From: Kiritimatiellia bacterium
GTDB lineage: Bacteria; Verrucomicrobiota; Kiritimatiellia; CAIQIC01; Lenti-01
NCBI GenBank assembly: GCA_040768005.1
Contig: JAXGNL010000009.1
Coordinates: 1,471-65,470, forward strand
Length of the DNA stretch: 64,000 nucleotides
Reading direction: 5' to 3'
Position numbers and translations under genes: made by a program. This document shows, piece after piece, positions 23,048 through 57,892 of the stretch; position 1 is the first letter of the stretch; each line of letters opens with the position of its first letter. Below the pieces are notes generated by a model that was not told where the DNA came from, ran no database searches, and saw nothing but the letters and a program-made list of their open reading frames with translations.

Positions 23048-23175
23048 GTGCAGACCGGCAGAGGCCGGCGCCGGACGCCAGCGGGTGAGCGGCGTTGAGC
23101 TTGTGCGCGGCCCGGAACCGCGACGCCCGGGCTTGACTGGGACGCAGGGCATGATAGTTTCGGCTCCGATAAATG

Positions 23176-23280
23176 GTCGCTAGGGGTGTCCTCGAGAAAG
23201 AGGGCTGAGAGTTCCCGTTGGGCGGGATAACCCTTGGAACCTGTTGGATCATTCCAGCGCAGGGACAGCGGATCGCTCGA
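23176..23280 (+). promoter_or_regulatory. TPP (THI-box) riboswitch
   Basis: GGGGTG...CTGAGA...ACCCTTGGAACCTGTTGGATCATTCCAGCGCAGGGA matches the conserved THI-box core. Lies directly upstream of cytX-thiM-thiE-thiD. Confidence 0.85.
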
Positions 23281-23366
23281 AAGAAGCCGTGGTTTCTCCG
23301 ATGGAACCGCGGCTTTGGCATGCCGTGGCGGCAGGCTCCCCGGCGCACCGGAAAGGAACCGGAGAC

Positions 23367-31146: not shown

Positions 31147-31221
31147 TGGAGGCGCGGATCGGAATCGAACCGATGAATAAGGATTTTGCAGACCCTCGCC
31201 TTACCACTTGGCTACCGCGCC
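31147..31221 (-). tRNA. tRNA-Cys (GCA)
   Basis: Reverse complement GGCGCGGTAGCCAAGTGGTAAGGCGAGGGTCTGCAAAATCCTTATTCATCGGTTCGATTCCGATCCGCGCCTCCA folds as a cloverleaf. Anticodon loop CTGCAAA; CCA is encoded. Confidence 0.9.
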
Positions 31222-44468: not shown

Positions 44469-45035
44469 ATGAACAAAGGTTGTTTGCTGGCCGCGGTTGC
44501 CGGCGTGGTGGTGCTGCTCGTGGTCCTGCTGACCTGGATGGGCATGTACAACGGCATCGTGACGCAGGATGAAGAATGCAACAAAGCCTGGGCCAACGTG
44601 GAGTCGGTGCTGCAGCGCCGCTTCGACCTGATTCCCAACCTGGTCAATACCGTCAAGGGCTATGCCGAGCATGAAAAAGGGATCCTCGAGGAAGTGACCC
44701 GCCTGCGCAGCCAGTGGGGCGAGGCCCAGACCACGGAGCAGAAGGCCGGCGTGGCCTCCATGCTGGAAGGCGCGCTGGGTCGCCTGATGGTCGTGGTGGA
44801 AAACTATCCCGACCTGAAGGCCAACCAGAACTTCATTTCCCTGCAGGATGAACTGGCCGGCACCGAAAACCGGATCAATGTCGAACGCCAGCGCTACAAC
44901 AGCGCCGTCCAGGGCTACAACACCACCATCCGGCGCATGCCGACCGCCCTGGTGGCGCGGATCTCCGGGTTCCAGCCCCGCACGCCGTTCGAGGCCGCGC
45001 AGGGCGCCGAAACCGCCCCGACCGTCCAGTTTTAG
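44469..45035 (+). CDS. lemA: LemA family protein
   Basis: 188 aa. RRFDLIPNLVNTVKGYAEHEK..., ENYPDLKANQNF..LQDELAGTENRI...RYN..V..YN. Confidence 0.9.
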   Translation: MNKGCLLAAVAGVVVLLVVLLTWMGMYNGIVTQDEECNKAWANVESVLQRRFDLIPNLVNTVKGYAEHEKGILEEVTRLRSQWGEAQTTEQKAGVASMLEGALGRLMVVVENYPDLKANQNFISLQDELAGTENRINVERQRYNSAVQGYNTTIRRMPTALVARISGFQPRTPFEAAQGAETAPTVQF

Positions 45036-45250
45036 CTGCGGGATTCACGCCGGGACACGTGCGGCGGAAAACCCGGACGCGTCCCGGTTCTCCCCGGGCC
45101 GGGCGGGGGCTGTTGCAGACCAGAGGACTCTCTTTGAAAGCGGTCCGGCTTCAGGGGGGAACGTCACTCCCGTCGCCGGCCTCCGGCAATCCTCTGGCCC
45201 CATCCGGGCTTCCGCCCCGCGAGCACAATACAGGCGCCCCCGCCGGGCTT

Positions 45251-45307
45251 GTTCAACCCGGGATTGCAGCGAGGCTTCGCACGCAACTGATCCCTGCTTT
45301 GTTCAAC
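45251..45307 (-). repeat. candidate terminal attC (cassette 14)
   Basis: TTCAACCCGGGATTGCAGCGAGGCTTCGCACGCAACTGATCCCTGCTTTGTTCAAC. CAAC and GTTCAAC boxes, CCGGGAT/ATCCCTG pairing. Weaker than the other attC sites. Confidence 0.4.
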
Positions 45308-45311
45308 GCAT

Positions 45312-45713
45312 TCATTGTTTGTTCAACAGGATCCCGTCGGCAGTGTAGACGAGTATATTGGTTGCGGTAACTCTGTAGTGAAGATTCAAGGTCTTCGTCA
45401 CATAATCAAGCGCATCGCGCATTGTGATTCTCCGCAGATTCAGAGTGAGAGGAGGAAGATTGGAGCATGCCGGTAGAGAGCGATCTAATATGACTGGCCG
45501 GGGAACAGGCGGAGCGTTGATATCCATCAGGCCAATGGGCCTCATGTCGTCAGCTTCGGGCATCATGATTATTCCGGAAATCATGAATTCCAGCACATCC
45601 GTGGCATTCCCGTCACGGAATATGCATGTGGGGATAATCATGGTGTCCAGCCGGTCGCCGATTGTCCCAGATTGTGCATTTGTATATGCGAAAGCGGACG
45701 TCCATGCCGCCAA
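45312..45713 (-). CDS. hypothetical protein fragment with PVC-type IIP..F...DVL.F / LTLNL..I...DAL.Y repeat domain, probably 5'-truncated
   Basis: ...DRLDTMIIPTCIFRDGNATDVLEFM...LTLNLRRITMRDALDYVTKTLNLHYRVTATNILVYT. No signal peptide. The ORF starts at the edge of the intron remnant. Confidence 0.5.
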   Translation of the reverse strand: MAAWTSAFAYTNAQSGTIGDRLDTMIIPTCIFRDGNATDVLEFMISGIIMMPEADDMRPIGLMDINAPPVPRPVILDRSLPACSNLPPLTLNLRRITMRDALDYVTKTLNLHYRVTATNILVYTADGILLNKQ

Positions 45714-45723
45714 GAACAGAAAT

Positions 45724-46165
45724 GCGATATGAAGGCCGGGTCACGGGGCGAGGTGGCACAACACACGGAAGCCCTTGATCTAGTGGACAAGGAAAATCGC
45801 GCGGTGGCGCAGCGGAAGTTCACGTTCTTATCTGGGGAGATTCCCAGGAGGAAATGCCTTGGGAAGTCCGTAGCGGCCATAGTAGCGCTGAAGCCCGTGT
45901 AAGCGGAGGGAGCGAAGGGCCGAACCGGTCGGCTGGCACTCGACCGCGGGATGGACATTGGAGCTGTTGACGCCCGATGGGGCCAGGTCTTCAATGAGTG
46001 CCGTTCCGGGGGAAGCATGGAGTGCCTGGGGCGGGGTCTTCGGATTCAGCCGTGCGGTTGGGGTTCATCCCTGATCGTCTGACCGGAACCGCCGGATGCG
46101 GAGCCGCATGTCCGGTGGTGTGGGAGTTGGGGCCGGCTCATTAGGGCCGGCTCCGGCGACCCGAT
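45724..46165 (+). mobile_element. group II intron remnant (ORF-less, 5'-truncated)
   Basis: GGCCGGGTCACGGGG..GGTGGCACAACACACGGAAGCCC...GTTCACGTTCTTATCTGGGGAGAT...CATAGTAGC aligns with 48023-48190 of the full intron. The 3' end CCCGAT|TCGGC parallels CCTCGAT|TCGCA of the full copy. Confidence 0.6.
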
Positions 46166-46178
46166 TCGGCGCCTTCAT

Positions 46179-46481
46179 CTACGCCATGGCAAAGGCTTGT
46201 ACTTCTTGCTCCAGCCGATCACCGAGCTTGTCTTGTTCCTGTTCCAGGTCAAAATGCGCCTGTAGGTTCAGCCAGAACTGCGGCGAGATGCCGAAATACC
46301 GGCCAAGCCGCAGGGCGGTATCCGCAGTCACGCTACGGGTGCCATGCACGATCTCATTGATTCGCCGTGGCGGGACGCTGATGTCGCGCGACAGGCGATA
46401 CTGGGAAATACCCATGGGGGCCAGAAATTCCTCCATGAGAATCTCGCCGGGATGGACGGGGGGCATTTTGTTGGTTCTCAT
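46179..46481 (-). CDS. higA: HigA antitoxin (XRE HTH)
   Basis: ATG 46481: MRTNKMPPVHPGEILMEEFLAPMGISQYRLSRDISVPPRRINEIVHGTRSVTADTALRLGRYFGISPQFWLNLQ. Confidence 0.9.
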   Translation of the reverse strand: MRTNKMPPVHPGEILMEEFLAPMGISQYRLSRDISVPPRRINEIVHGTRSVTADTALRLGRYFGISPQFWLNLQAHFDLEQEQDKLGDRLEQEVQAFAMA

Positions 46482-46491
46482 GTCTTTTCTC

Positions 46492-46771
46492 CTAATGATA
46501 ATCCACAATCTCAACATCATGCGCGGCCTTCTCTCCATCGAAAGCAAATGCGCCATTGGTCATTGATCCGAATGCTATGCTGTCCCGCTCGGTTGCCGGC
46601 CAGAGCTTCCAGCCGGTTCCCAGGCGGTACCCGCAGAGAGATCAAATCCGGCGCCGCATCAATCATCCAGAGTTTCCGCAAGGCCGTCCGCTGAATGTCA
46701 TGGGGGAGCTTTCGCACAACCTCCCGCCGGAATATCTTTTCAGCCTCCGGGCTTCTGAATGACTTGATCAT
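46492..46771 (-). pseudogene. higB: HigB toxin (RelE/ParE superfamily), last 10 codons in another frame as read
   Basis: MIKSFRSPEAEKIFRRE...LRVPPGNRLEALAGNRAGQHSIRINDQWRICFRWREG then TGA. The expected ending AHDVEIVDYH-TAG is in the +1 frame and finishes just before the higA RBS. Confidence 0.8.
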
Positions 46772-47790: not shown

Positions 47791-47844
47791 AATCACGGGT
47801 CAGGGGACCCGACACCTTGTGGCGGGTACCCTGGACCCGCTTGT
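47791..47844 (-). repeat. attC (cassette 10), interrupted by group II intron
   Basis: AATCACGGGTCAGGGGACCCGACACCTTGTGGCGGGTACCCTGGACCCGCTTGT, completed by TCGCA at 49645-49649. This gives GCTTGTTCGCA, as in the other attC right boxes. The left box is degenerate (CAC instead of AAC). Confidence 0.7.
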
Positions 47845-49644
47845 GTACGCCCAGCATGGGCGTGAAGCGTATGGGGTTGAAGTCCCCTGTACATGGAATC
47901 AACCTACCGAAAGGAAGGGAAAAGTACGAGCCAAAAGCAAGGGCGGTCGGGTAACCGGCGGTCTGGAGGAAGCTGGCGGCGAAGTCACGGGCCGATGAAC
48001 AAGAATTGCATAGCAGGCCGAGTGGGCCGGGTGAGTGGGCACAAGACCACGAAACCCGCTGGTTCAGCCCATACGGTAAATGCGGCGGCCGCGGGACGGA
48101 CGTTCACGCTCTTATCTGGGGAGATCCCGTCCCGACCTCTCAAGAGTCGGGACCGGGAAGTCAGCCGAGGGCATAGTAGCCCAACGCCGGAGGCAATGCT
48201 CCGGACATGGTGAAGGCCCGAACATCGGAACCGGGGAGGACGCCCGTCGCTCCCGCCGCCTTGATGAACCCGAATGGGGGAGAGCGCGGCGGCAACACGG
48301 CGGCCCCGTCTGCCCCGCAACCCACCGACCTGCTCGAACGGGTCCTGGATCGCGGCAACCTCAACCGGGCCTGGCGCCGGGTCAAAGCCAACGGCGGCGC
48401 ACCCGGCATCGACGGCATGACCGTCGAAGCCTTCCCGGAATGGGCGCGCGTGAACTGGGCTCCGATCCGGCAGGCGATCCTGACGGGAACCTACCGCCCT
48501 TCGCCGGTGCGGCGGGTGGAGATTCCCAAGGCCTCTGGAGGCAAACGCCCGCTGGGCATCCCGACCGTCACGGACCGGGTGATCCAGCAGGGCATTCTCC
48601 AGGTGCTCGGCCCGATGTGGGACCCCGGATTCTCGGAGTCCAGCTTCGGGTTCCGTCCCGGACGCAACGCCCACGGAGCTGTCAAGCAGGTCCAGGGGCT
48701 GATCCGCACCGGCCGCCGCTGGGCGGTCGATATCGACCTGCGGAAGTTCTTCGACACCGTGGACCACCGGATCGTCATGAGCCGGTTGGCCCGCAAGATC
48801 GAAGGCCAGCCGCTGTTGAGGCTGATCGGCCGCTACCTGCGGGCGGGCGTCATGATCGACGGACACATCGAACCCACGCGGGAGGGCGTGCCCCAGGGCG
48901 GGCCGCTCTCGCCCCTGCTGGCCAACATCGTTCTGGACGACCTCGACCGGATGCTGGATCAACGCGGTCATGCGTTCGCGCGGTACGCGGACGACTTCGT
49001 GATCCTGGTCCGGAGCGAACGGGCGGCCCAACGCGTGATGGCCGGCGTCTGCACCTTTCTGGAACGCAGGCTCAAGCTCCGCATCCATACCGGCAAAAGC
49101 CGCATCGTGCGCGGTTCGCAACTCGATTACCTCGGGTTCTGCTTCGCACGCGGCCGCATCCGGCTCACCCACGAGGCCCTGCTGAACTTCAAGCGGGAAC
49201 TCCGGTGGTGGACCGGGCGGCACTGGTTGAAGTCGATGGACGTGCGCCTTGCCAAGCTGCGGTCCTACGTGCAGGGGTGGATGAACTACTACGGGCTCTC
49301 CGGCGTCTACCGCGACTGGCCGGGTCTGGACGACTGGCTGCGGCGGCGGATTCGGATGTGCTACTGGGTGATGTGGAAACGTCCCCGGCCCCGCATCCGC
49401 AACCTGCGCGCCCTCGGCGTCCCGATCCGCCAGGCGGTCGGCCTCGGCCGCAGCAGTCTCGGATCGTGGAAGTGCGCCCGACTGCTTGGGTTCGCGATGT
49501 CAAAGAGCTGGCTGGAAAAGCAGGGTCTCATCTGCCTCGCAGACGACTGGTGAGCGGCGCTGGTACTGGGTCCGGCGAACGCCGGTGAATCTGCAACGCG
49601 TACGGTGGCAGGGAGGAGCTAATCACTCCCTTACCCACCTCGAT
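47845..49644 (+). mobile_element. group II intron, class C attC-targeting type (1800 nt)
   Basis: Starts GTACG directly after an attC stem-loop ending in TTGT. Ends ...CCTCGAT before TCGCA. Encodes an RT/maturase without an endonuclease domain. Orientation is antisense to the cassettes. Confidence 0.8.
48207..49553 (+). CDS. group II intron reverse transcriptase/maturase
   Basis: RVEIPKASGGKRPLGIPTVTDRVIQQ, FGFRPGRNAHGAV, DIDLRKFFDTVDH, GVPQGGPLSPLLANIVL, ARYADDFVILV, maturase RSYVQGWMNYYG. No HNH/En domain. The start could instead be ATG 48264. Confidence 0.9.
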   Translation: MVKARTSEPGRTPVAPAALMNPNGGERGGNTAAPSAPQPTDLLERVLDRGNLNRAWRRVKANGGAPGIDGMTVEAFPEWARVNWAPIRQAILTGTYRPSPVRRVEIPKASGGKRPLGIPTVTDRVIQQGILQVLGPMWDPGFSESSFGFRPGRNAHGAVKQVQGLIRTGRRWAVDIDLRKFFDTVDHRIVMSRLARKIEGQPLLRLIGRYLRAGVMIDGHIEPTREGVPQGGPLSPLLANIVLDDLDRMLDQRGHAFARYADDFVILVRSERAAQRVMAGVCTFLERRLKLRIHTGKSRIVRGSQLDYLGFCFARGRIRLTHEALLNFKRELRWWTGRHWLKSMDVRLAKLRSYVQGWMNYYGLSGVYRDWPGLDDWLRRRIRMCYWVMWKRPRPRIRNLRALGVPIRQAVGLGRSSLGSWKCARLLGFAMSKSWLEKQGLICLADDW

Positions 49645-56385: not shown

Positions 56386-57369
56386 GTGCCGGAGCAGATG
56401 GATCGGGGAAAGGATGGATGGGAACGGCATCTGGTGGATCAGTTGCGGATCAAGCATTACCAATGGCGGACGGAACAGACCTATCGGGAACTGGGCTTGG
56501 AAGTTTGCGGATGGCTGGGAAAGAAGCAACTGGAGGAGGCGACCGGGGAGGATTTGAAGCAATATATGACGCATCTGGCGGCCGAAAAGAACGTGGCGGC
56601 CAGCACCCAACGGCAGGCCTTGAACGCCCTGGTTTTCTTCTTCCGTGAAGTGCTGGGGCGGGAGCCTGGGGATTTGACGGGGTTCCAGGCTTCACGGCGT
56701 CCGCCCAGAATCCCAACGGTGCTGACATCGGCGGAGTGCCTCCGGCTGTTTGACCAACTGGCGGGGACGACGAAACTGATGGCGCAACTGATGTATGGGG
56801 CCGGATTGCGGCTGATGGAACTGCTTCGGCTGCGGATCATGGACGTTGATCTGGAGCGGGGAATCGTAACGGTTCGCTCGGGAAAGGGAGGCAAGGATCG
56901 GGTTACGGTCCTGCCGGAATCGCTAAAGGGACCCTTGGCTCAGCATCTGGAACGGTTGCGGAAGCTGTTCGAGGAGGATCGTGCGGAAGGCGCCGCCGGG
57001 ACATGGCTACCCCCGCCAGTGGAACACAAGATTCCCAATGCCGGGAAGACTTGGGCTTGGCAATGGCTGTTTCCTTCCCGTCAGATGGCCATTGACCCCC
57101 GTTCAGGGATTCGCCGGCGCCACCATGTGCAGGATTCGGCATTCCAGACGGCGATCCGCAGGGGGGCGGAGGATGCGAAGATCGCGAAGCGGGTTACTCC
57201 GCATACGCTCCGCCACAGTTTCGCGACGCATCTATTGCAGGCGGGGCACGACATCCGTACGGTCCAGGAGTTGCTGGGCCATGCGGCCGTGGAGACGACG
57301 ATGATCTATACCCATGTGCTGAACAAACCGGGGGTGACCGTTCGCAGTCCCTTGGATGCGGGGAGATAA
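56386..57369 (+). CDS. intI: integron integrase
   Basis: 327 aa. LRIKHYQWRTEQTY, AASTQRQALNALVFFF, GLRLMELLRLRIMDVD, the IntI-specific insert EHKIPNAGKTWAWQWLFPS, HTLRHSFATHLL, ELLGHAAVETTMIYTHV. The same frame is open upstream to 56161 except for one TGA at 56359. Confidence 0.85.
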   Translation: MPEQMDRGKDGWERHLVDQLRIKHYQWRTEQTYRELGLEVCGWLGKKQLEEATGEDLKQYMTHLAAEKNVAASTQRQALNALVFFFREVLGREPGDLTGFQASRRPPRIPTVLTSAECLRLFDQLAGTTKLMAQLMYGAGLRLMELLRLRIMDVDLERGIVTVRSGKGGKDRVTVLPESLKGPLAQHLERLRKLFEEDRAEGAAGTWLPPPVEHKIPNAGKTWAWQWLFPSRQMAIDPRSGIRRRHHVQDSAFQTAIRRGAEDAKIAKRVTPHTLRHSFATHLLQAGHDIRTVQELLGHAAVETTMIYTHVLNKPGVTVRSPLDAGR

Positions 57370-57798: not shown

Positions 57799-57892
57799 TG
57801 GCGGAGAGAGAGGGATTCGAACCCTCGGTACCGGTTGTTACCAGTACGACGGTTTAGCAAACCGTTGCTTTCGGCCACTCAGCCATCTCTCC
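57799..57892 (-). tRNA. tRNA-Ser (GCT)
   Basis: Reverse complement GGAGAGATGGCTGAGTGGCCGAAAGCAACGGTTTGCTAAACCGT...GAGGGTTCGAATCCCTCTCTCTCCGCCA. Long variable arm, anticodon loop TTGCTAA, CCA encoded. Confidence 0.9.

What the first reader, a model, noticed from the sequence alone, without database searches (positions are those of the whole stretch)
45251..46178. Second, ORF-less intron remnant fused to a host-type gene fragment at the distal end of the array
45724-45940 aligns with 48023-48190 of the full intron (for example GTTCACGTTCTTATCTGGGGAGAT vs GTTCACGCTCTTATCTGGGGAGAT, and CATAGTAGC). The remnant ends CCCGAT|TCGGC, parallel to CCTCGAT|TCGCA. So it keeps the 3' junction with the attC of the higBA cassette. 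It lacks the first 180 nt or so, the RT gene and the attC stem-loop itself. Immediately to the left is a gene fragment with a PVC-typical domain and no N-terminus, followed by a weak attC-like site (45251-45307). The simplest reading is a deletion. A more interesting reading is an intermediate of intron-assisted gene capture, as proposed in the intron/cassette-genesis hypothesis.
Basis: inference. Interest (0 to 1): 0.65.

Follow-up and report, generated by a model that had tools for sequence, protein, structure and literature searches.

The report
Truncated mini-intron fused to cassette gene
A broken copy of a mobile self-splicing intron that carries no enzyme gene sits at the far end of a bacterial gene-cassette array, where a deletion of about 245 bp between two short matching sequences removed its front end, the neighbouring recombination site and the first four codons of the next cassette gene; this is ordinary decay, not a snapshot of gene capture.

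Summary
Window 45714/45730-46165 (+) is the 3' three-quarters of a group IIC-attC intron. It has no RT gene and lacks about 150 nt at its 5' end. Its 3' junction lies exactly at the canonical TTGT|T site in R'' of the higBA cassette attC.

It is not a decayed copy of the neighbouring RT-bearing intron (only 71% identity over 134 nt). It belongs to a separate 602-nt ORF-less lineage, with intact members in other attC sites (L213 and L158, 81-83% identical).

The "host-type gene fragment" is a bona fide mobile cassette gene of 142 aa. It occurs in at least five other arrays with the same G|TT boundary, has cassette-like GC, and here lacks only codons 1-4.

The junction lies in a 12-14-nt stretch (ACAGAAATGCGATA, 45716-45729) that is native to both partners. 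Gene homologues carry it as codons 4-8. In the intron it forms a covarying D1 stem. So a deletion of about 245 bp between short direct repeats removed the intron 5' end, the attC stem-loop and the gene start.

Relatives show the intact intron-free higBA attC (L222-L229) and a second, deeper deletion (L214-L221). The deletion reading is supported; the gene-capture reading is not. This is a known kind of object and of modest interest.

The parts
45251..45307 (-). Last attC of the array. On the top (-) strand it reads R'' GCGTTGAAC ... R' G|TTGAAC. It is degenerate and weakly folding, and core DNA (lemA 44469-45035) follows it.
   Evidence: Sequence. The DNA fold gives -10.7 kcal/mol, z = -1.0, with 28 of 200 shuffles folding as well.
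45312..45729 (-). 5'-truncated cassette gene of the 142-aa secreted-protein family (weak STN-like C-terminus). It runs from the last base of codon 4 to the stop codon. The start codon and residues MKTI are missing. The remaining frame opens at 45740, and possible starts are TTG 45713 or ATG 45641.
   Evidence: Homologues P0001-P0011 are 51-83% identical, and full-length members begin MKTIIAFLCLAA. DNA homology to the L015-L018 cassettes begins at TATCGCATTTCT. STN scores E 0.0046, below the cut-off, and is matched by 8 of 12 family members. GC is 0.51.
45716..45729 (+). Deletion junction. ACAGAAATGCGATA is 12-14 nt of sequence native to both the gene (reverse complement of codons 4-8) and intron domain I. 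The cross-over lies somewhere inside it.
   Evidence: Gene side: the reverse complement of the homologues reads GCA[C/T]AGAAATGCGATAATCG. Intron side: the family consensus is ACA[G/A][A/G]AA-NNNNAT-A. TGCGAT (45723-45728) pairs 6/6 with ATCGCG (45796-45801), and this stem covaries in relatives as CGTCAT/ATGACG, CCGCAT/ATGCGG, TGTCAT/ATGGCA and TCACAT/ATGTGG.
45730..45826 (+). Retained distal part of intron domain I. It includes the EBS1 loop CACAACAC (45757-45764), in which ACAA is complementary to IBS1 TTGT, and the family-invariant motif GTTCACGTTCTTATCTGGGGAGAT (45818-45841).
   Evidence: RF02001. Alignments to 15 relatives and to L213/L158. The motif is present in 67 intron copies in 64 genome loci.
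45828..45920 (+). Intron domains II-III.
   Evidence: RF01998 scores 29.6 bits here, against 49-50 bits in the intact relatives. This stretch is about 90% identical to L213/L158.
45921..46087 (+). Domain IV stub without an ORF. It is conserved with the ORF-less relatives.
   Evidence: tblastn with the RT finds nothing (best E 2.4). The stretch aligns colinearly with L213/L158.
46088..46119 (+). Domain V. It is canonical, with a CGC triad, a 2-nt bulge and a tetraloop.
   Evidence: RF00029 scores 38.8 bits. The RNA fold is (((((((((((((....))))..))))))))) within a segment with z = -4.8. It is the only match to the family DV profile between 44001 and 52000.
46121..46165 (+). Domain VI with a bulged A at 46159, and the intron 3' end ...GGCGACCCGAT.
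   Evidence: Fold. The same terminus occurs in L158 and L213, which sit in unrelated sites.
46166..46178 (+). 3' exon, which is the remainder of R'' of the higBA attC (bottom strand TCGGCGCCTTCAT). The insertion point is TTGT|T.
   Evidence: The intact attC in L222-L229 reads TAG-ATGAAGGCGGCGA|AC-AAGGGG...CCCTGAC|GTT. The window departs from it exactly at '|'.
46179..46771 (-). higBA toxin-antitoxin cassette, made up of higA (46179-46484) and higB (46517-46771). It has lost its attC stem-loop and is now fused to the remnant and the truncated gene. In this genome higB carries a 2-nt deletion.
   Evidence: Pfam HigB-like_toxin E 1.1e-15 and HTH_3. Two nucleotides are missing near 46525 relative to L211, L212 and L007, giving 84 aa instead of 93 aa.
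47795..49644 (+). Comparator. An attC stem-loop (47795-47844) is followed by an RT-bearing group IIC-attC intron (47845-49644; RT 48207-49553).
   Evidence: RF02001 scores 120 bits. RVT_1 and GIIM domains. The flanks are CTTGT|GTACGCCC...CTCGAT|TCGCA.
56386..57369 (+). Integron integrase, which defines the proximal end of the array. It is divergent from the cassettes, which are on the - strand.
   Evidence: Phage_integrase E 3.7e-37 and Phage_int_SAM_4 E 2.2e-19. The attC series between it and 45251 is.

Best explanation
Context. The window is a chromosomal integron of a Kiritimatiellia bacterium.

Inferred history:
- A 602-nt non-autonomous (ORF-less) group IIC-attC intron inserted into the bottom strand of the higBA cassette's attC. 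It inserted at the canonical TTGT|T site in R'', antisense to the cassettes.
- At that time the last cassette of the array, a 142-aa secreted-protein gene with its own attC, lay immediately downstream.
- Later, a nascent strand slipped between two direct copies of ACAGAAATGCGATA (12-14 nt). One copy lay about 150 nt into intron domain I. The other lay in codons 4-8 of the neighbouring gene.
- The slip removed about 245 bp: the intron's first 150 nt or so, the whole attC stem-loop, the 15-nt cassette leader and the gene's first 11 nt. The hairpin-forming attC between the repeats probably favoured the slip.

Result:
- The intron is dead. It lacks the 5' splice site and proximal D1, although DV and DVI remain perfect.
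- The gene has no start codon and lacks the charged start of its signal peptide.
- There is now one fused, non-excisable unit, higBA-remnant-gene fragment, served only by the weak terminal attC.

Shown directly: the identity of all parts, both junction positions, the shared repeat, and reference states for each partner. Inferred: the order of events and the slippage mechanism.
For: Intron identity and completeness of the 3' part:
- Rfam modules and a canonical DV/DVI fold.
- A colinear alignment, 81-83% identical, to two intact 602-nt ORF-less introns, L213 and L158. Each sits in a canonical attC (...CGCCTTGT|GTGCGCCC...CCCGAT|T) and passes all three Rfam models at or above the gathering score.
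- The remnant corresponds to intron positions from about 151 to 602.

3' junction:
- The intact higBA attC in L222-L229 is TAGATGAAGGCGGCGA|ACAAGGGG...CCCTGAC|GTT. The window switches to intron sequence exactly at '|'.
- The published target consensus is TTGT/T in R'' of the bottom strand, antisense to the cassettes (PMC7923331, PMC3001079).

Gene:
- 11 homologues. Full-length proteins start MKTIIAFLCLAA.
- Five contexts share an identical cassette start, GAC|GTTCGACGAAGAAATATGAAAACGATTATCGCA, behind different attCs.
- GC is 0.51, like the other cassettes, against 0.67 for core DNA.

Shared repeat at the junction:
- Gene side from the homologues.
- Intron side from the family consensus and from a stem that pairs 6/6 (TGCGAT/ATCGCG). 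Three of its pairs differ on both sides from the CCGCAT/ATGCGG stem of L158/L213.

Size and independence:
- The reconstructed deletion is about 243-245 bp.
- The junction is fixed in independent assemblies.
- A second, deeper deletion of the same intron-occupied attC exists in L214-L221. It departs from the canonical attC at the same nucleotide and keeps about 22 nt resembling the intron tail (15-16 of 22; p about 2e-4). This suggests the configuration is deletion-prone.
- Replication slippage across attC stem-loops is an accepted route to fused cassettes (review PMC8876359).
Against: - No contig with the undeleted arrangement was recovered, that is, an intact ORF-less intron in the higBA attC next to the full-length gene. 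The adjacency of the two cassettes before the deletion is therefore assumed.
- The intron-side copy of the repeat is inferred from covariation, not observed. The closest intact relatives have ACAAGAACCGCATA at that place.
- A 12-14-nt chance identity between a 150-nt and a 430-nt segment is a priori rare (expected about 0.01). The argument relies on deletions selecting such sites.
- Sequence alone cannot tell whether the event happened after or during intron insertion.
Confidence: 0.6

Rival explanations
1. Abortive retrohoming. The truncation and the flanking deletion arose in one step while the ORF-less intron was being inserted. The cDNA (- strand) primed at the replication fork copied the reverse-spliced intron RNA only as far as position 150 or so. 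Its 3' end (...ATCGCATTTCTGT) then annealed to the identical sequence in the neighbouring gene on the DNA template. Synthesis continued there, skipping the intron 5' part and the attC hairpin.
For: The geometry fits exactly. The nascent - strand runs from the 3' exon through the intron towards the gene, and its 3' end at the break is identical to gene codons 4-8. 5'-truncated group II intron copies are known, for example UHB.F1, a 5'-truncated IIC-attC intron in a cassette array (PMC7923331). From general knowledge, class C introns lack an endonuclease domain and use nascent strands at replication forks as primers (also stated in PMC4424553).
Against: Nothing in the sequence distinguishes this from later slippage. 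It needs the RNA-containing template strand to be lost or repaired, and it needs a trans-acting RT at the moment of insertion. The second deletion variant (L214-L221), with a different end-point at the same attC, is more simply explained by repeated post-insertional decay.
Confidence: 0.25
2. Intermediate of intron-assisted cassette genesis (Leon-Roy model). The intron is caught in the act of joining a chromosomal gene to an attC.
For: A group IIC-attC intron is physically joined to a gene at the end of an array, and an RT-bearing relative lies 1.7 kb away. The model itself is published (summarised in PMC7923331 and PMC3001079).
Against: - The gene is already a cassette that moves between arrays with fixed boundaries, and it has its own attC.
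- Its GC is cassette-like, not core-like.
- It is antisense to the intron, and it is joined to the intron by its 5' end, not its 3' end.
- The intron is truncated and cannot splice.
- The attC stem-loop has been lost. The intact attC without an intron exists in relatives.
Confidence: 0.03
3. Artefact or chance. The similarity reflects short low-complexity matches, or the junction is an assembly chimera formed across a repeated element.
For: Introns of this family are highly repeated in the source community: P0033 is listed in 131 blocks. The 3' end of the window's RT-bearing copy does look aberrant.
Against: Three Rfam modules lie in the correct order, and there is 81-83% identity over about 440 nt to intact introns. 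The junction is the same in the contigs examined from 10 independently assembled metagenome samples from JGI and ENA; within 45030-46200 two of them (L211, L212) differ from the window by only 1-2 SNPs.
Confidence: 0.02

Closest known systems
Group IIC-attC introns (S.ma.I2 and relatives; Quiroga 2008, Leon & Roy 2009, Leon 2010 = PMC3001079)
   Same: Class C ribozyme modules. Insertion is into the bottom strand of an attC at TTGT|T in R'', antisense to the cassettes, and preferentially in distal cassettes. The EBS1 loop carries ACAA. An RT-bearing member is present in the same array.
   Different: This copy has no IEP and lacks about 150 nt at its 5' end, together with its 5' exon (the attC stem-loop). 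It cannot be a functional member. Its lineage begins GUGCG, and the wider family sampled here begins GUACG.
UHB.F1, a 5'-truncated group IIC-attC intron in a soda-lake cassette array (Sonbol & Siam 2021, PMC7923331)
   Same: A 5'-truncated IIC-attC intron lying antisense within a cassette array that also carries type II TA cassettes, with DV/DVI preserved.
   Different: UHB.F1 still carries a (frameshifted) RT gene, and its truncation point and mechanism were not resolved. Here the truncation junction is mapped to a 12-14-nt repeat, and reference states exist for all partners.
ORF-less bacterial group II introns acted on in trans (Simon et al. 2008; reviewed in PMC4424553; surveyed in PMC8919778)
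   Same: An ORF-less ribozyme lineage that co-resides with related RT-encoding introns. Intact members (L213, L158) occupy different target sites, which implies mobility in trans.
   Different: Those reports describe such introns as rare. They do not describe an attC-targeting ORF-less lineage. The copy in this window is, in addition, broken.
Fused integron cassettes formed by attC loss or truncation, e.g. blaGES-1/aacA4 (review PMC8876359)
   Same: Two cassettes are joined because the intervening attC was deleted. Slippage at the attC hairpin is the proposed cause.
   Different: Here one deletion end-point lies inside an intron that had occupied the attC, so an intron remnant forms the linker.

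Membership tests
Group II intron, class C (ribozyme) | Domain I-IV structure recognised by class-C-type covariance models | tested here: inconclusive
   RF02001 scores 44.1 bits (gathering score 32), but only its 3' two-thirds is real. RF01998 scores 29.6 bits, below its gathering score of 35. The intact relatives score 88-100 and 49-50 bits. The retained part fits; the proximal part of D1 is absent.
Group II intron, class C (ribozyme) | Domain V (catalytic triad, 2-nt bulge) and domain VI with a bulged A close to the 3' end | tested here: met
   RF00029 scores 38.8 bits (gathering score 40; E 7.6e-6). The fold is canonical, with a CGC triad and bulged A46159. It matches the family DV profile.
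Group II intron, class C (ribozyme) | Intact 5' end (GUGYG or GUACG) and 5' splice site | tested here: not met
   No intron homology lies left of 45714. Relatives begin GTGCGCCC or GTACGCCC about 150 nt further upstream.
Group IIC-attC lineage | Inserted in the attC bottom strand at TTGT/T of R'', antisense to the cassettes | tested here: met
   The 3' junction is mapped against the intact higBA attC of L222-L229. The orientation is opposite to all cassette ORFs. The 5' exon itself is deleted. The consensus is taken from PMC7923331.
Group IIC-attC lineage | Intron-encoded RT belonging to the IIC-attC clade (the clade was defined on IEP phylogeny) | tested here: not met
   No ORF and no RT vestige (tblastn best E 2.4). 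The lineage is ORF-less. Affiliation rests on the RNA and on the target site only.
Integron gene cassette (for gene 45312-45729) | Promoterless ORF bounded by G|TT cross-over points and followed by its own attC, and found in different arrays | tested here: met
   Five other contexts share an identical 5' boundary behind different attCs and have a downstream attC. In the window the 3' attC is present but weak, and the 5' boundary is deleted.
Leon-Roy cassette-genesis intermediate | An intact intron lies downstream of (and co-oriented with) a non-cassette gene's terminator, and is able to recombine with an intron in an attC | tested here: not met
   The intron is truncated, antisense, and joined to the gene's 5' end. 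The gene is already a cassette. The model is as summarised in PMC7923331.
Short-direct-repeat (slipped-strand) deletion | Both parental end-points carry the same short sequence in direct orientation, and one copy remains at the junction | tested here: inconclusive
   The gene-side copy is observed in the homologues. The intron-side copy is inferred from a 6/6 covarying stem and the family consensus. The parental molecule itself was not recovered.

The most novel reading that the evidence does not exclude
The remnant would be one of at least two independent decay products (the window type and the L214-L221 type) of a non-autonomous attC-targeting mini-intron of about 600 nt that is mobilised in trans. 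In the family sampled here, ORF-less copies outnumber RT-bearing ones about 3:1. On this reading, occupation of an attC by such an intron makes the site prone to short-repeat deletions. Those deletions destroy the attC, fuse neighbouring cassettes, and lock toxin-antitoxin cassettes into the distal end of chromosomal integrons. Introns would then act as agents of array erosion and stabilisation rather than of cassette genesis.
Probability: 0.3. Interest if true: 0.55.

Novelty: new member of a known kind. Interest (0 to 1): 0.3.

Why it matters
The locus is a clean, fully referenced example of how an integron array decays at its distal end. An intron-occupied attC was lost through a deletion between 12-14-nt repeats. 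That deletion fused a toxin-antitoxin cassette to its neighbour and inactivated both the intron and the neighbouring gene.

It removes a tempting but wrong candidate for the long-sought "cassette genesis intermediate".

The by-products may matter more than the locus itself. There is a 602-nt ORF-less attC-targeting intron lineage with intact members. [quoted passage not shown] And two independent deletions occurred at the same intron-occupied attC.

Tried and rejected
- RT vestige in the remnant. tblastn with the neighbouring RT found nothing. The DIV stub is instead conserved with ORF-less relatives.
- The Rfam RF02001 5' extension to 45668. I rejected it as forced alignment: that stretch encodes conserved residues of the cassette protein and does not align with any intron relative.
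- Treating the remnant as a decayed copy of the window's RT-bearing intron. Rejected: identity is only 71% over 134 nt, and much closer ORF-less relatives exist.
- The metagenome scan with the DV pattern was far too unspecific (more than 120 loci). It did, however, yield L158.
- A protein search with a spurious 57-aa ORF inside the remnant was used as a handle. It yielded sister-strain contigs and L213.
- I briefly considered that the L214-type sequence downstream of higA was the native higBA attC. That would have made the window's 3' junction non-canonical, or a second microhomology junction. I rejected this once L222-L229 supplied the canonical attC, from which both the window and L214 depart at the same nucleotide.
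- Outward promoter (Pout) in the remnant. The sigma-70 scan found none on the - strand within 45714-46165. The scan is weak for this phylum.
- No paralogue of the gene and no further intron copy lies elsewhere in the 64-kb window.
- The genome-contig scan did not return the source genome, so the rest of the genome could not be searched.
- Leon & Roy 2009 (PMC2747902) is not held. The model was taken from secondary descriptions.
Full report
**Setting.** The window carries a chromosomal integron. A tyrosine-recombinase gene of the integron-integrase type lies at 56386-57369 (+). A series of related attC sites runs leftwards from about 55.5 kb to 45.25 kb, and the cassette ORFs are on the - strand. 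Core genes begin left of 45250, with lemA at 44469-45035. Exact-sequence look-ups attribute LemA and HigA to Kiritimatiellia MAGs, in the PVC superphylum. The + strand of the window is therefore the bottom strand of every attC. That is the strand which folds and which group IIC-attC introns invade (PMC3001079, PMC7923331).

**Checking the observation.**
- All three group II modules are found on the + strand inside the flagged interval: RF02001 (D1) 44.1 bits, RF01998 (DII-DIII) 29.6 bits, RF00029 (DV-DVI) 38.8 bits.
- The DV/DVI segment folds into a textbook DV (CGC triad, 2-nt bulge) and a DVI with bulged A46159, z = -4.8.
- Similarity to the neighbouring RT-bearing intron (47845-49644) is genuine but modest. 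45714-45844 matches 47997-48128 at 70.9% over 134 nt (E 4e-9), and there is a further 26-nt block at 81%.
- There is no trace of an RT reading frame.
- The junction is not an assembly artefact. The same arrangement (lemA, truncated gene, remnant, higA) is present in all contigs examined, which come from ten independently assembled metagenome samples. Two sister contigs differ from the window by only 1-2 SNPs within 45030-46200.

**What the remnant is.**
- It is not a decayed copy of the window's RT-bearing intron. Two intact elements were recovered: L213 (positions 104-705) and L158 (1416-816, - strand). Each is 602 nt with no ORF.
- Each sits in a canonical attC...AACGTCAGCG...GGAACGCCTTGT|GTGCGCCC...GGCGACCCGAT|T. 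Both pass RF02001 (88-100 bits), RF01998 (49-50 bits) and RF00029 (41 bits).
- The remnant aligns colinearly with both at 81-83% identity, from intron position 151 or so to 602. The alignment includes the ORF-less domain IV stub.
- The lack of an RT gene is therefore the ancestral state of a propagating, presumably trans-mobilised, lineage. It is not part of the local damage. What the window copy has lost is only the first 150 nt or so.

**The gene on the left.**
- The - strand frame 45312-45740 has 11 homologues at 51-83% identity. Full-length members are 142 aa and begin MKTIIAFLCLAAWTTAFA|YTNA, a signal peptide.
- In five unrelated contexts (L009, L015-L018) the gene starts at exactly the same cassette boundary, GAC|GTTCGACGAAGAAAT-ATG, behind five different attCs. 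In L009, where the downstream sequence was read, its own attC follows.
- Its GC content (0.51) matches the other cassettes (0.47-0.56), not the core (0.67).
- The only family signal is a sub-threshold STN-like C-terminus.
- In the window, DNA homology to these cassettes starts at TATCGCATTTCTG. Only codons 1-4, the 15-nt leader and the cassette boundary are missing.
- The attC behind it (45251-45307) has recognisable R''/R' boxes but folds weakly, z = -1.0.

**The 3' junction.** Other arrays carry the same higBA cassette (HigA at least 90% identical) with an intact attC and no intron: TAG-ATGAAGGCGGCGA|AC-AAGGGGTTCC...CCCTGAC|GTTCAAT (L222-L229). The window follows this sequence up to '|' and then continues with the reverse complement of the intron 3' end. 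On the bottom strand the insertion is therefore ...CCCCTTGT|intron|TCGGCGCC. This is the published TTGT/T target in R'' (PMC7923331). The retained D1 loop CACAACAC (45757-45764) carries the complementary ACAA.

**The 5' junction.**
- Going left from the intron, homology to every relative stops at about 45714.
- Going right from the gene, homology to the cassette stops at 45729.
- The two ranges overlap in ACAGAAATGCGATA (45716-45729).
- On the gene side this is the reverse complement of codons 4-8 (ATT-ATC-GCA-TTT-CTG) in the homologues. L017 gives 14 of 14 nt, and the others give AGAAATGCGATA, 12 nt.
- On the intron side, the family consensus at this position is ACA(G/A)(A/G)AA, then a 6-nt stem strand, then A.
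- The stem strand covaries with its partner about 70 nt downstream: CGTCAT/ATGACG, CATCAT/ATGATG, CCGCAT/ATGCGG, TGTCAT/ATGGCA and TCACAT/ATGTGG.
- In the remnant the downstream partner is ATCGCG (45796-45801). It pairs 6/6 with TGCGAT (45723-45728). Relative to L158/L213, three positions have changed on both sides.
- A gene-derived hexamer unrelated to the intron would do this about 0.3% of the time, (6/16)^6 by my estimate. The sequence was therefore native to both partners.

**Mechanism.**
- I reconstructed the parent from the window, the cassette start of L017, the attC of L222 and the first 150 nt of L213. This places the two repeat copies about 245 nt apart in direct orientation, with the attC hairpin between them.
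- Loss of one copy plus the intervening DNA gives exactly the observed sequence.
- The best explanation is strand slippage (RecA-independent deletion between short direct repeats), probably helped by the intervening hairpin. The integron literature invokes this route for fused cassettes (PMC8876359).
- The same template switch could instead have happened during the original retrohoming. The cDNA 3' end at intron position 150 or so is identical to the gene's sense strand. This alternative cannot be excluded from sequence.

**Consequences (inferred).**
- The intron cannot splice or move.
- The gene has lost its start codon and the first four residues of its signal peptide (MKTI). Public gene callers predict only a 109-aa or a 36-aa product.
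- higBA, the remnant and the gene fragment now form one unit without an internal attC.

**A second decay product.** In L214-L221 the same higBA cassette departs from the canonical attC at the same nucleotide as the window. It then carries about 22 nt that resemble the intron tail: 15-16 of 22, anchored and ungapped, p about 2e-4 by shuffling. Unrelated sequence ending in ...GCCTTG|TTGGC follows. This hybrid folds poorly, z about -1.5. I read it as an independent, deeper deletion of an intron-occupied higBA attC.

**The gene-capture reading.** In the Leon-Roy model, intact introns insert behind a gene's terminator and into an isolated attC, and homologous recombination then joins the two (as summarised in PMC7923331). 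None of its expectations is met here:
- The gene is already a mobile cassette with its own attC.
- It is antisense to the intron and is joined to it by its 5' end.
- The intron is truncated.
- An attC stem-loop was lost rather than gained.

**Comparison with known systems, and novelty.** Each element is known:
- group IIC-attC introns (S.ma.I2 and relatives);
- 5'-truncated copies in arrays (UHB.F1, PMC7923331);
- ORF-less bacterial introns that depend on a related RT in trans (PMC4424553);
- cassette fusion by attC loss (PMC8876359).

The locus is a new member of a known kind. What it adds is base-pair resolution of the truncation, together with reference states for all three partners. Interest is modest.

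**Things seen on the way.**
- The D1 motif GTTCACGYTCTTATCTGGGGAGAT occurs in 67 intron copies in 64 loci of GTDB representative genomes (Microbulbifer, Leptolyngbya/Phormidesmis-type cyanobacteria, Thiotrichaceae, Methylococcaceae, Pirellulaceae). In 39 copies DV lies 279-537 nt downstream (ORF-less). In only 12 does it lie at 1.2-1.9 kb (RT-bearing).
- The window's "full" intron encodes an RT that matches at 446 of its 448 residues a 455-residue RT found in many attCs (listed in 131 blocks of the collection). Its last 110 nt or so, however, are riddled with substitutions and indels. No DV is detectable by Rfam or by the family profile, and the region does not fold as a DV. The canonical copies do.
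- Tandem head-to-tail intron copies exist in L204 and L209.
- higB carries a 2-nt deletion in this genome only.

Noticed in passing
window 49554-49644 (3' end of the RT-bearing intron 47845-49644): The 'full' intron has no recognisable domain V. There is no RF00029 hit at E<=10, no hit to the family DV profile, and the region does not fold as a DV (z = -1.7). Copies whose 455-residue RT matches the window's at 446 of 448 residues (L203-L210) have a canonical DV (RF00029 47 bits in L203). Over the full length the window copy differs from L203 by 16 mismatches and 9 indels, clustered in the last 110 nt or so. This could be real decay, recombination or local assembly noise; it is unresolved. The RT stop codon differs as a result (448 aa against 455 aa).
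   Followed up: partly
L019-L082 (genome-contig hits to GTTCACGYTCTTATCTGGGGAGAT): In this intron family, ORF-less copies (DV 279-537 nt after the D1 motif) outnumber RT-bearing ones 39 to 12, with 16 unresolved. There are often several per array, for example at least 4 within 8 kb in Microbulbifer epialgicus (L044). Reviews describe ORF-less group II introns as rare in bacteria (PMC4424553).
   Followed up: partly
L213 104-705 (+); L158 1416-816 (-): Two intact 602-nt ORF-less group IIC-attC introns lie in canonical attC sites of unrelated cassettes. They are 81-83% identical to the window remnant. The lineage starts GUGCG and keeps a conserved DIV stub. It is presumably mobilised in trans.
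   Followed up: yes
L214-L221, the first ~60 nt downstream of higA: The same higBA cassette departs from its canonical attC exactly at the intron insertion point. It retains about 22 nt resembling the intron tail, then joins unrelated sequence ending GCCTTG|TTGGC. This is a second, deeper deletion derivative that forms a weakly folding hybrid attC.
   Followed up: partly
L204 ~2290-2370; L209 ~1-70: There are head-to-tail tandem copies of the RT-bearing intron (...CTTTACCCGAT|GTACGCCCAGCATGGG...). A second copy inserted at the same TTGT site, directly upstream of the first.
   Followed up: no
window ~46525 (higB, 46517-46771 -): higB lacks 2 nt relative to the sister contigs L211, L212 and L007. 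This truncates the toxin (84 aa instead of 93 aa, with the C-terminal NAHDVEIVDYH lost). higA is intact.
   Followed up: yes
window 46806-46778 (-): A sigma-70-like promoter match (TTGACG-17-TATGTT) lies just upstream of higB. This is consistent with TA cassettes carrying their own promoter. It is a consensus match only.
   Followed up: no
window 47795-47844 vs L009 3210-3262, L018, L204-L207: Nearly the same attC (ACGGGTCAG[G/C]GGACCCGACACCTTGTGG[C/A]GGGTAC[C/G]CTGGA[A/C]CC[G/-]...) recurs behind different cassettes in several arrays. It is repeatedly the one occupied by the RT-bearing intron.
   Followed up: no
window 23172-23283 (+); 31150-31221 (-); 57802-57892 (-): There is a TPP riboswitch (60 bits) and two tRNA genes. 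One tRNA (57802-57892, with a long variable arm) lies just beyond intI.
   Followed up: no
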